IMG/VR virus record: IMGVR_UViG_2660238126_000007
Direction: 5' to 3' (one strand)
Length of the DNA stretch: 2,318 nucleotides
Source: a virus
Taxonomy: Duplodnaviria > Heunggongvirae > Uroviricota > Caudoviricetes
Under the pieces are notes generated by a model, which made no database searches, was not told the origin of the DNA, and saw only the letters and a list, made by a program, of their open reading frames with translations. Below, one piece after another: positions 1-2,318 of this stretch. Position numbers and translations under genes: made by a program. Every line of letters begins with the position of its first letter. Positions within the stretch are counted from its first letter, which is position 1.

Positions 1-354
1 GTGGCTGATTTCGATAACCTGTTCGATGCTGCCATTGCCCGCGCCGATGAAACGATACGCGGGTACATGGGAACGTCAGCCACCATGACATCCGGTGAGC
101 AGTCCGGTGCTGTGATACGTGGTGTTTTTGATGACCCTGAAAATATCAGCTATGCCGGACAGGGCGTGCGCGTTGAAGGCTCCAGCCCGTCCCTGTTTGT
201 CCGGACTGATGATGTGCGGCAGCTGCGGCGCGGCGACACGCTGACCATCGGTGAGGAAAACTTCTGGATAGACCGGATTTCGCCAGATGATGGCGGAAGC
301 TGTCATCTCTGGCTTGGGCGGGGCGTACCGCCTGCCGTTAACCGTCGCCGCTGA
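1..354 (+). CDS. FII: Head-tail joining (head completion / tail attachment) protein, lambda gpFII-like
   Basis: 117-codon ORF ending at TGA 352-354. Translation (MADFDNLFDAAIARADETIRGYMGTSATMTSGEQSG...HLWLGRGVPPAVNRRR) is recognised as near-identical to lambda gpFII over its full length. First codon in the window is GTG at position 1; upstream RBS is off-window. Position immediately upstream of Z matches lambda gene order. Confidence 0.9.
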   Translation: MADFDNLFDAAIARADETIRGYMGTSATMTSGEQSGAVIRGVFDDPENISYAGQGVRVEGSSPSLFVRTDDVRQLRRGDTLTIGEENFWIDRISPDDGGSCHLWLGRGVPPAVNRRR

Positions 355-365: not shown

Positions 366-944
366 ATGGCCATAAAAGGTCTTGAGCAGGCCGTTGAAAA
401 CCTCAGCCGTATCAGCAGAACGGCGGTGCCCGGTGCCGCCGCAATGGCCATTAACCGCGTTGCTTCATCCGCGATATCGCAGTCGGCGTCACAGGTTGCC
501 CGTGAGACAAAGGTACGCCGGAAACTGGTAAAGGAAAGGGCCAGGCTGAAAAGGGCCACGGTCAAAAATCCGCAGGCCAGAATCAAGGTTAACCGGGGGG
601 ATTTGCCCGTAATAAAGCTGGGTAACGCGCGGATTGTCCTGTCCCGACGCAGGCGTCGTAAAAAGGGGCAGCGTTCAGCCCTGAAAGGTGGCGGCAGCGT
701 GCTTGTGGTGGGAAACCGTCGTATTCCCGGCGCGTTTATTCAGCAACTGAAAAATGGCCGCTGGCATGTCATGCAGCGTGTGGCCGGGAAAAATCGTTAC
801 CCCATTGATGTGGTGAAAATCCCGATGGCGGTGCCGCTGACCACGGCGTTTAAACAGAATATTGAGCGGATACGGCGTGAGCGTCTTCCGAAAGAGCTGG
901 GCTATGCGCTGCAGCATCAACTGAGGATGGTAATAAAGCGATGA
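366..944 (+). CDS. Z: Minor tail protein / tail completion protein, lambda gpZ-like
   Basis: 192-codon ORF (ATG 366, TGA 942-944). Translation MAIKGLEQAVENLSRIS...[15 protein letters not shown] is recognised as lambda gpZ-like across the whole length. Strongly basic, with an RRRRRKK cluster. Synteny between FII and U. Confidence 0.9.
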   Translation: MAIKGLEQAVENLSRISRTAVPGAAAMAINRVASSAISQSASQVARETKVRRKLVKERARLKRATVKNPQARIKVNRGDLPVIKLGNARIVLSRRRRRKKGQRSALKGGGSVLVVGNRRIPGAFIQQLKNGRWHVMQRVAGKNRYPIDVVKIPMAVPLTTAFKQNIERIRRERLPKELGYALQHQLRMVIKR

Positions 945-1336
945 AACATACTGAACTCCGAGCAGCCGTACTGGATGCACTGGAGAAGCATGACACCGGG
1001 GCGACGCTTTTTGATGGTCGCCCCGCTGTTTTTGATGAGGAAGATTTTCCGGCAATTGCCGTTTATCTCACCGGCGCTGAATACACGGGCGAAGAGCTGG
1101 ACAGCGATACCTGGCAGGCGGAGCTGCATATTGAAGTTTTCCTGCCTGCTCAGGTGCCGGATTCAGAGCTGGATGCGTGGATGGAGTCCCGGATTTATCC
1201 GGTGATGAGTGATATCCCGGCACTGTCAGATTTGATCACCAGTATGGTGACCAGCGGCTATGACTATCGGCGCGACGATGATGCGGGCCTGTGGAGTTCA
1301 GCCGATCTGACTTATGTCATTACCTATGAAATGTGA
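941..1336 (+). CDS. U: Tail tube terminator protein, lambda gpU-like
   Basis: 131-codon ORF (ATG 941, TGA 1334-1336). Translation [54 protein letters not shown]...LTYVITYEM is recognised as lambda gpU. Start overlaps the Z stop in an ATGA arrangement. Confidence 0.9.
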
Positions 1337-1343: not shown

Positions 1344-2084
1344 ATGCCTGTACCAAATCCTGTAATGCCGGTGAAAGGGGCCGGGACCACCCTGTGGGTT
1401 TATAAGGGGAGTGGTGACCCTTATGCGAATCCGCTTTCAGACGTTGACTGGTCGCGTCTGGCAAAAGTTAAAGACCTGACGCCCGGCGAACTGACCGCTG
1501 AGTCTTATGACGACAGCTATCTCGATGATGAAGATGCAGACTGGACTGCGACCGGGCAGGGGCAGAAATCTGCTGGAGATACCAGCTTCACGCTGGCGTG
1601 GATGCCCGGAGAGCAGGGGCAGCAGGCGCTGCTGGCGTGGTTTAATGAAGGCGATACCCGTGCCTATAAAATCCGCTTCCCGAACGGCACGGTCGATGTG
1701 TTCCGTGGCTGGGTCAGCAGTATCGGTAAGGCGGTGACGGCGAAGGAAGTGATTACCCGCACGGTGAAGGTCACCAATGTGGGACGTCCGTCGATGGCAG
1801 AAGATCGCAGCACGGTGACGGCGACAACCGGCATGACGGTGACACCCGCCAGTGCTTCCGTAGTGAAAGGGCAGAGCACCACGCTGACCGTGGCATTCCA
1901 GCCGGATGGCGCAACCGACAAGAGCTTCCGTGCGGTGTCTGCGGATAAAACAAAAGCCACCGTGTCGGTCAGTGGTATGACCATCACCGTGAAAGGTGTT
2001 GCTGCAGGCAAGGTCAACATTCCGGTCGTATCCGGTAATGGTGAGTTTGCTGCGGTTGCAGAAATCAACGTCACCGCCAGTTAA
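1344..2084 (+). CDS. V: Major tail tube protein, lambda gpV-like (N-terminal tube domain plus C-terminal Ig-like domain)
   Basis: The six-frame track opens this ORF at 1314 ([15 protein letters not shown]...), but the ATG at 1344 is preceded by a GAGGA SD and gives the N-terminus [31 protein letters not shown], which matches lambda gpV. 246 codons to TAA 2082-2084. C-terminal part is rich in T/V/S/A (...[25 protein letters not shown]...), typical of a Big_2-type Ig-like domain. Confidence 0.9.
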
Positions 2085-2087
2085 TCC

Positions 2088-2093
2088 GGAGAG
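2088..2093 (+). promoter_or_regulatory. Shine-Dalgarno for G (GGAGAG), 6 nt before ATG 2100
   Basis: GGAGAG directly seen in the 15-nt V-G spacer. Confidence 0.6.
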
Positions 2094-2099
2094 TCAGCG

Positions 2100-2318
2100 A
2101 TGTTCCTGAAAACCGAATCATTTGAACATAACGGTGTGACCGTCACGCTTTCTGAACTGTCAGCCCTGCAGCGTATTGAGCATCTCGCCCTGATGAAACG
2201 GCAGGCAGAACAGGCGGAGTCAGACAGCNNNNNNNNGTNNNCTNTNACCAACTATAAACGACCACTTTGCCTTTCATCCTATTGTCGATCCCTTATCGCG
2301 GCGGATAATCGCTTTTGA
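2100..2318 (+). CDS. G: Tail assembly chaperone, lambda gpG-like, 5' portion; frame interrupted by ambiguous bases and followed by divergent 3' sequence (possibly truncated or disrupted)
   Basis: ATG 2100 with SD. First 43 codons (MFLKTESFEHNGVTVTLSELSALQRIEHLALMKRQAEQAESDS) are recognised as the lambda gpG N-terminus. Codons 44-49 fall in the N-containing stretch. The remaining 23 codons (TNYKRPLCLSSYCRSLIAADNRF) do not resemble gpG and end at TGA 2316-2318, whereas lambda gpG is about 140 aa. Confidence 0.6.
   Translation: MFLKTESFEHNGVTVTLSELSALQRIEHLALMKRQAEQAESDSXXXXXXTNYKRPLCLSSYCRSLIAADNRF
2229..2246. other. Cluster of ambiguous base calls (13 N among 18 positions) inside the G reading frame
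   Basis: Directly seen: nnnnnnnngtnnnctntn. Indicates a low-confidence consensus, masked bases or an assembly gap. Confidence 0.95.

What the first reader, a model, noticed from the sequence alone, without database searches (positions are those of the whole stretch)
2247..2318. Lambda gpG homology stops abruptly right after the N-cluster; downstream 72 nt look foreign and end in an in-frame stop
Up to codon 43 the G ORF reads as lambda gpG. After the ambiguous stretch the in-frame translation (TNYKRPLCLSSYCRSLIAADNRF*) and the other two forward frames bear no resemblance to the gpG continuation I recall (…EDAIRTGAFLVAMSLWHNHPQ…). By my hand count this 72-nt tail is about 44% GC, clearly lower than the upstream phage genes, and looks non-coding. 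If real, G is cut to 72 codons, so the functional G chaperone and its downstream G-T frameshift fusion would be lost and the tail-assembly module would be defective. Possible explanations are an assembly misjoin or contig-end artefact (favoured, because the break coincides exactly with the low-quality bases), an IS or transposon insertion, a deletion joining G to unrelated DNA (prophage decay), or a mosaic recombination joint. I could not match the 72 nt to any IS terminus I know.
Basis: partly seen in the sequence, partly recalled or inferred. Interest (0 to 1): 0.5.

Follow-up and report, generated by a model that had tools for sequence, protein, structure and literature searches.

The report
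Assembly misjoin: phage G onto bluF
The apparent truncation of the phage tail-chaperone gene G is an assembly artefact: a prophage contig end and an unrelated fragment of the E. coli gene bluF were laid over each other by 18 bases, and N was written wherever the two disagreed.

Summary
The window is 100% gpG up to 2228, and 2247-2318 is not phage, is 44.4% GC and ends in an in-frame TGA. The 72 nt are not non-coding. They are 72/72 identical to the sense strand of the E. coli core gene bluF (CDS nt 501-572, BluF aa 168-190), read one base out of frame.

The N-cluster 2229-2246 (NNNNNNNNGTNNNCTNTN) is exactly the position-by-position consensus of the next 18 nt of intact G (AACCGGAAGTTTACTGTG) and the 18 nt of bluF just upstream of the tail (TGATTCCTGTGCCCTTTC). 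A base is called only where both agree (5/18, chance level), and N elsewhere (18/18 positions fit). One DNA molecule cannot carry both sequences, so two sequence ends were superimposed in silico.

The source is NCBI GCA_000936365.1, contig CCBV01000112.1. It is a serial chimera, with 9 unrelated E. coli segments in its first 12.4 kb. All 22 of its Ns lie at four joins, and 35/36 zone positions obey the same rule. None of 5426 complete E. coli genomes, and none of three contig collections, has the G-bluF junction.

G is not shown to be truncated, so there is no biological feature here. Interest is very low, except as a warning about this assembly.

The parts
1..354 (+). FII (head-tail joining protein, 117 aa). 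It has a native GTG start and is genuine prophage sequence.
   Evidence: ORF list. Pfam PF05354 on the called gene. The same GTG start is present in an intact prophage, L004 10001. The region is 98.5% identical to Escherichia phage 2G7b over 1-2228.
366..944 (+). Z (minor tail protein, 192 aa)
   Evidence: PF06763.
941..1336 (+). U (tail terminator, 131 aa)
   Evidence: PF06141.
1344..2084 (+). V (major tail protein with C-terminal Big_2 domain, 246 aa)
   Evidence: Called gene at L003 1438-2178 with PF16461 + PF02368. Annotated as major tail protein V in phage hits.
2100..2228 (+). G codons 1-43 (tail assembly chaperone gpG), unambiguous sequence
   Evidence: 100% identity to annotated gpG in many complete genomes over window 1900-2228. 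Anchor verified.
2229..2246 (.). 18-nt overlay zone. G nt 130-147 (AACCGGAAGTTTACTGTG) is superimposed on bluF CDS nt 483-500 (TGATTCCTGTGCCCTTTC). A base is printed where both agree (g, t, c, t, t) and N where they differ.
   Evidence: Predicted strict consensus NNNNNNNNGTNNNCTNTN equals the observed string at 18/18 positions. Repeated with an allele-matched bluF. Chance of this pattern plus these bases is about 1e-7.
2247..2318 (+). Fragment of the E. coli chromosomal gene bluF (ycgF), sense strand, CDS nt 501-572. Its true reading frame starts at 2248 (BluF aa 168-190).
   Evidence: 72/72 identity in 3647 records, under the annotated bluF, one copy per genome. Position in the CDS. Translation matched to BluF residue 168. 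In the source record the fragment continues only to record position about 2460, then switches to modA.
2100..2318 (+). Chimeric 72-codon ORF call (G codons 1-43 + 6 X + out-of-frame bluF). This is an artefact protein.
   Evidence: The exact product is on record on only one contig, CCBV01000112.1, with no Pfam hit. Intact homologues are 140 aa with PF06894, followed by T with PF06223.

Best explanation
The G/bluF junction is an in-silico assembly or consensus artefact, not a DNA junction. During construction of contig CCBV01000112.1 (assembly GCA_000936365.1), the end of a prophage sequence that runs through at least G nt 147 was joined to a short (~138 nt) bluF sequence. The two ends were laid over each other by 18 positions although they share no real similarity (5/18 matches). 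The consensus step wrote the base where both agreed and N where they disagreed. A gene caller then read through the join and produced a 72-codon G'-X6-(out-of-frame bluF) ORF. The window was cut at that ORF's stop codon.

Shown: the identity of both parents, the exact consensus rule, its recurrence at the other joins of the same contig, and the absence of the junction everywhere else.

Inferred: that the overlay came from a scaffolding or contig-merging step with a spurious link and a negative gap estimate. The software used is unknown.
For: (1) The tail is 72/72 identical to bluF, a single-copy core gene present in 4928 of 5426 genomes, and lies inside the CDS on the sense strand.
(2) N-cluster 2229-2246 equals the strict consensus of the G continuation and the bluF upstream sequence at 18/18 positions. 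Chance is about 1e-7.
(3) Source contig found. Its first 12,412 nt hold 9 segments: nudC 92 nt | prophage FII-G | bluF 138 nt | modA'BC' | nadE-cho-ves-spy-astE-astB' | fepD 203 nt | yafD-yafC' | pckA 169 nt | yafS.
(4) In the near-identical complete genome GE3 these segments lie at 0.855 Mb, 1.913 Mb, 0.684 Mb and 0.235 Mb.
(5) All 22 Ns in those 12.4 kb lie in four join zones, and 35/36 zone positions follow the same consensus rule.
(6) 0 of 5426 complete E. coli genomes have G and bluF within ~700 nt on one strand. The junction pattern has 0 matches in viral, genome and metagenome contig collections.
(7) Among the contigs read (the 24 index blocks with the longest contigs), all 10 places shown for the identical FII protein have FII-Z-U-V followed by a 140-aa G, T and the tape measure.
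Against: No reads were available, so the absence of spanning reads is not shown directly. The software that produces such overlays was not identified. One of 36 overlay positions (L003 12152) carries the right-hand parent's base instead of N. The modC|nadE join needs a 1-nt indel to fit. The remaining 11 kb of the contig and the other contigs of the assembly could not be read, so the rest of G and T were not located.
Confidence: 0.95

Rival explanations
1. The links between segments come from physically chimeric molecules in the sequencing library (ligation concatemers, or PCR or amplification template-switch chimeras) that the assembler followed. This is still an artefact, but wet-lab rather than purely computational.
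For: Many short foreign pieces (92, 138, 203 and 169 nt) are interleaved with kb-sized segments. Several joins are blunt or share only 1 nt. An 8-mer, GCGGTTGG, recurs 13 nt apart across the bluF|modA join, which could hint at microhomology.
Against: A chimeric molecule has one definite sequence at its junction. It would not give an 18-nt zone in which both parental continuations are represented and conflict. At minimum, a consensus overlay step is also required. No common restriction site is visible at the joins (read directly).
Confidence: 0.15
2. A real deletion or rearrangement (prophage decay) in this strain fused G codon ~43-49 to the middle of bluF.
For: bluF lies ~3 kb from the icd-type prophage attachment region in E. 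coli (icd remnant and prophage genes), so a lambdoid prophage could in principle sit nearby.
Against: The overlay zone contains both parents' continuations. The bluF piece is only ~138 nt long and is itself joined to modA, which lies far away. The orientation is wrong for a simple deletion from the icd side: the tail reads toward bluF's 3' end and icd. 0 of 5426 genomes share the junction. There are 8 such joins in 12.4 kb, cutting the core genes nudC, modA, modC, astB, fepD, yafC and pckA.
Confidence: 0.01
3. An IS element or transposon inserted into G, and the 72 nt are its terminus.
For: The homology break is abrupt and GC drops.
Against: The 72 nt are internal bluF coding sequence, at one copy per genome (median 1, maximum 2) and always under the bluF annotation. 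No direct or inverted repeats occur around the break.
Confidence: 0.005
4. The tail belongs to a divergent gpG allele or a mosaic recombination joint with another lambdoid phage.
For: None beyond the general mosaicism of lambdoid phages.
Against: No phage record matches the 72 nt beyond 20-24-nt chance hits at E>=0.2. The stretch is 100% identical to a host gene.
Confidence: 0.005

Closest known systems
Chimeric contigs or misjoins in draft bacterial genome assemblies
   Same: Flanks map to distant loci in closely related complete genomes. The junction is unique to one record. Ambiguous bases sit exactly at the joins. Truncated or fused gene calls span the joins.
   Different: The signature is unusually explicit. 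Instead of a run of Ns or a clean false join, the two contig ends are superimposed by 1-18 nt and only the agreeing positions are printed. Both parents can therefore be reconstructed from the N pattern. I could not attribute this behaviour to a named assembler.
Lambda gpG / gpGT tail assembly chaperone (Pfam Phage_TAC_2, PF06894)
   Same: Window 2100-2228 is 100% identical to the first 43 codons of annotated gpG. The gene context FII-Z-U-V-G is canonical.
   Different: The window ORF has 72 codons, no Pfam hit, and lacks the C-terminal two-thirds, the slippery site and T. This is because of the misjoin, not biology. Intact relatives have a 140-aa G followed by T.
E. coli bluF (ycgF), blue-light-responsive BLUF-EAL regulator
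   Same: Window 2247-2318 is 72/72 identical to bluF CDS nt 501-572, encoding aa 168-190.
   Different: Only ~138 nt of the 1212-nt gene is present in the source contig, out of frame with the upstream ORF, and flanked by unrelated DNA on both sides.

Membership tests
Lambda gpG tail assembly chaperone (Phage_TAC_2) with G-T -1 frameshift | N-terminal sequence and gene context of gpG (after V, in the FII-Z-U-V-G order) | tested here: met
   100% nt identity to annotated gpG through codon 43. Context Pfam hits.
Lambda gpG tail assembly chaperone (Phage_TAC_2) with G-T -1 frameshift | Full-length ~140-aa protein with the Phage_TAC_2 domain, followed by the overlapping T frame | tested here: not met
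   The window ORF is 72 aa with no Pfam family on record. The sequence after 2246 is bluF. Intact loci show a 140-aa PF06894 protein plus a 144-aa PF06223 protein. The failure is attributed to the misjoin.
E. coli bluF gene | Nucleotide identity and correct reading frame of BluF | tested here: met
   72/72 identity. Inside the annotated CDS on the sense strand. The frame from 2248 gives BluF aa 168-190.
E. coli bluF gene | Complete gene in its chromosomal context (ycgZ-bluF-bluR) | tested here: not met
   Only ~138 nt are present, between phage G and modA. Normal context shown.
IS element / transposon insertion | Multi-copy element with terminal inverted repeats and a target-site duplication | tested here: not met
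   Median 1 copy per genome, always bluF. No direct or inverted repeats in 1900-2318.
Genuine rearrangement or prophage-decay junction | One determinate sequence across the junction, reproducible in related genomes or independent data | tested here: not met
   The zone is a two-parent conflict consensus. 0 of 5426 complete genomes have the junction, and there are 0 hits in three contig collections.
Assembly chimera (misjoin) | Flanking segments are non-adjacent in closely related finished genomes | tested here: met
   GE3 coordinates are 0.855, 1.913, 0.684 and 0.235 Mb for abutting segments. G and bluF are never adjacent.
Assembly chimera (misjoin) | Ambiguity or consensus conflict localised at the joins, recurring within the record | tested here: met
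   All 22 Ns of L003 lie in 4 join zones, and 35/36 positions fit the strict-consensus rule.
Assembly chimera (misjoin) | No sequencing reads or read pairs genuinely span the join | not testable with these tools

The most novel reading that the evidence does not exclude
The strain really carries a heavily scrambled chromosome segment (or a subpopulation with a G-bluF fusion), and the Ns reflect a mixed population rather than a software overlay.
Probability: 0.01. Interest if true: 0.25.

Novelty: not a real feature. Interest (0 to 1): 0.04.

Why it matters
Biologically it does not matter. There is no evidence for a truncated G chaperone, a lost G-T frameshift or a defective tail module.

Its practical value is as a data-quality flag. 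Contig CCBV01000112.1, and by implication assembly GCA_000936365.1, is serially chimeric. Fused or truncated artefact proteins from it are already in public protein collections, for example the 72-aa G'-'bluF ORF. The N pattern (a base only where the two parents agree) is a simple, searchable signature that could be used to detect the same kind of misjoin in other draft assemblies.

Tried and rejected
- Phage origin of the tail: a blastn (word size 11) search against 50,697 phage records gave only 20-24-nt chance hits. Rejected.
- IS terminus: the sequence is single-copy and always bluF, with no repeats. Rejected.
- Real junction elsewhere: no complete E. coli genome has it, and pattern scans of viral, genome and metagenome contigs found nothing.
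- Merge through the shared 8-mer GCGGTTGG at the bluF|modA join: base-by-base labelling shows a blunt join with at most 1 nt shared, and the 8-mer is not the merge point.
- Ungapped overlay at the modC|nadE join does not fit. It fits only with a 1-nt indel (one A of the reference 'AA' is missing), and two references agree on 'AA'.
- Restriction-site (Hi-C or ligation) joins: no common site is seen at the joins by eye.
- Literature on CCBV01 / GCA_000936365: no paper found.
- Identifying the assembler: not possible from the sequence alone.
- Technical note: loci fetched in parallel were not all exported to the Python sandbox, so several reference stretches were copied from get_sequence outputs.

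Full report
**What is in the window.** The 2318-nt window carries a canonical lambdoid head-tail/tail block on the + strand:
- FII at 1-354, with a GTG start that is native (see L004)
- Z at 366-944
- U at 941-1336
- V at 1344-2084
- the start of G at 2100

The called genes carry the expected Pfam families. Positions 1-2228 are 98-98.5% identical to lambda-like phages such as 2G7b, mEp332 and 434. Positions 1900-2228 are 100% identical to prophages of many complete E. coli genomes in which the last gene is annotated gpG.

**Checking the observation.**
- The only ambiguous characters are 13 Ns within 2229-2246.
- G is unambiguous for 43 codons (2100-2228).
- The tail 2247-2318 is 44.4% GC against 56.5% upstream. 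In the G frame it reads TNYKRPLCLSSYCRSLIAADNRF*, which gives a 72-codon ORF.
- The tail has no credible match among 50,697 phage records.

**What the tail is.** It is 72/72 identical to the E. coli chromosomal gene bluF (ycgF). bluF is present in 4928 of 5426 complete genomes, at one copy each. The match lies inside the CDS on the sense strand, at nt 501-572. In the frame starting at 2248 it translates to PTINDHFAFHPIVDPLSRRIIAF, which is BluF residues 168-190. The tail is therefore coding host DNA read one base out of frame. The TGA at 2316-2318 is an out-of-frame artefact, and the low GC is bluF's own (43.9%).

**The decisive result.** The N-cluster is not random low quality.
- The next 18 nt of intact G after codon 43 are AACCGGAAGTTTACTGTG (L002 3330-3347).
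- The 18 nt of bluF immediately upstream of the tail are TGATTCCTGTACCCTTTC in an O157 allele. They are TGATTCCTGTGCCCTTTC in an allele that matches the source contig's bluF fragment 100%.
- Writing a base where the two agree and N where they differ gives NNNNNNNNGTNNNCTNTN, which is identical to window 2229-2246 at all 18 positions.
- The two parents agree at only 5 of 18 positions, which is chance level, so this is not a homology-driven overlap.
- The probability that exactly those five positions are the called ones, and carry the right bases, is about 1e-7.

A single DNA molecule cannot contain both sequences at the same positions. Two sequence ends were therefore superimposed computationally. 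One runs through at least G nt 147, and the other starts at or before bluF nt 483.

**Provenance and replication.** The exact 72-aa product (with its X residues) is on record on one contig only: NCBI GCA_000936365.1, CCBV01000112.1, 23,572 nt. The window is record 95-2412, from the first base of the FII gene call to the last base of the chimeric ORF call. That explains why the window ends in a stop codon.

The first 12,412 nt of the contig (L003) hold nine segments:

| L003 position | Content |
|---|---|
| 1-92 | nudC fragment |
| 93-2340 | prophage FII to G nt 147 |
| 2323-2460 | bluF fragment |
| 2460-4187 | modA'-modB-modC' |
| 4181-9949 | osmE/nadE spacer through astB' |
| 9949-10151 | fepD fragment |
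| 10151-12153 | yafD-yafC' |
| 12144-12312 | pckA fragment |
| 12313 onward | yafS |

In strain GE3, which matches four of these segments at 99.5-100%, they lie at 0.855, 1.913, 0.684 and 0.235 Mb.

L003 contains 22 Ns, and all of them lie in four join zones:
- G|bluF: 18/18 positions fit the strict-consensus rule.
- modC|nadE-upstream: TCCGTGG over CCCGTGA gives NCCGTGN, 7/7, with a 1-nt indel next to it.
- fepD|yafD: t against g gives N, 1/1.
- yafC|pckA: GCGGTAAGTA over TCACCAAAAG predicts NCNNNAANNN and NCNNNAANAN is observed, 9/10.

The other joins are blunt or share one agreeing base. Overall, 35 of 36 overlay positions obey the rule.

**Absence elsewhere.** No complete E. coli genome has the G fragment and bluF within about 700 nt on one strand: 0 of 5426 have at least 80% of window 1900-2318 in one place. 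A pattern spanning the junction with any 18 nt in between has no match in the viral, genome or metagenome contig collections. A local test had confirmed that N in a pattern matches N in the sequence. Among the contigs read (the 24 index blocks with the longest contigs), all 10 places shown for the identical FII protein have FII-Z-U-V followed by a 140-aa G (PF06894), T (PF06223) and the tape measure.

**Mechanism.**
- Shown: two parents, the overlay, the consensus rule, its recurrence, and uniqueness to this record.
- Inferred: a scaffolding or contig-merging step accepted spurious links between contig ends, many of them tiny contigs of 92-203 nt. It applied a non-positive gap, merged the overlapping ends column by column, and emitted N at conflicts.

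I could not identify the program, and no paper mentions the accession. Physically chimeric library molecules may have supplied the false links, but they cannot by themselves produce a two-parent conflict zone.

**Alternatives.**
- IS insertion is rejected: the sequence is single-copy bluF and there are no repeats.
- A gpG variant or mosaic joint is rejected.
- A real deletion or prophage-decay junction is rejected. The overlay contains both parents. The bluF piece is only 138 nt and is itself joined to modA. The orientation relative to the icd attachment region is wrong. The junction is absent from all other genomes.

**Comparison with known things and verdict.** This is an ordinary draft-assembly chimera with an unusually legible signature. 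The G part is a true gpG N-terminus, and the tail is a true bluF fragment. The 72-codon ORF belongs to no protein family. There is no evidence that G, the G-T frameshift product or tail assembly is impaired in the strain. Novelty: not a real feature. Interest is very low, apart from flagging this assembly and offering a simple test for similar misjoins (N only where the two flanking parents disagree).

Noticed in passing
L003 (CCBV01000112.1) 1-12412: The whole contig is a serial chimera. There are 9 unrelated E. coli segments and 8 joins in 12.4 kb, cutting nudC, G, bluF, modA, modC, astB, fepD, yafC and pckA. The assembly GCA_000936365.1 as a whole is probably unreliable.
   Followed up: yes
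L003 2420-2821, 3513-4370 and 11316-12344: Other gene calls span joins or start at them: a 133-aa truncated ModA, a 285-aa ModC' fusion, and a 342-aa ORF running from yafC across the pckA fragment and past the pckA|yafS join. Like the 72-aa G'-'bluF ORF, these are artefact proteins that now sit in public protein collections.
   Followed up: partly
window 1 and 2318 (record 95 and 2412): Both window ends coincide exactly with gene-call boundaries (the FII GTG start and the stop of the chimeric ORF). The 'in-frame stop at the end of the window' is therefore a consequence of how the window was cut. The phage segment itself starts only 2 nt upstream of FII, at the blunt join with nudC (record 92/93).
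   Followed up: yes
L003 2453-2460 and 2466-2473: The 8-mer GCGGTTGG occurs twice, 13 nt apart, across the bluF|modA join: once at the end of the bluF piece and once just inside modA. It is not the merge point. It could be coincidence or the source of the false link.
   Followed up: partly
L003 4187/4188: At the modC|nadE-upstream join, one A of the reference 'GTGAACG' is missing in the contig. Two references agree on AA. This is a 1-nt indel right at a join.
   Followed up: partly
L003 12152: This is the only overlay position (1 of 36) that breaks the strict-consensus rule. It carries the pckA base 'a' although the yafC parent in GE3 has 't'. It may be an allele difference in the source strain.
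   Followed up: no
L003 10151-12153 and 12313-12412: The yafD-yafC segment and the following yafS segment look like neighbouring loci: L018 shows yafC-yafD next to a SAM-dependent methyltransferase, and from memory of the K-12 map, not tested here, yafS lies a few kb further on. They are separated in the contig by a foreign 169-nt pckA piece. Some joins may therefore reflect partly correct local scaffolding with misplaced tiny contigs.
   Followed up: no
L001 9395-9562 (O157:H7 PV15-279): bluF lies ~3 kb from an icd remnant and prophage-type genes (the icd attachment region). This was considered for the deletion hypothesis and rejected on orientation.
   Followed up: partly
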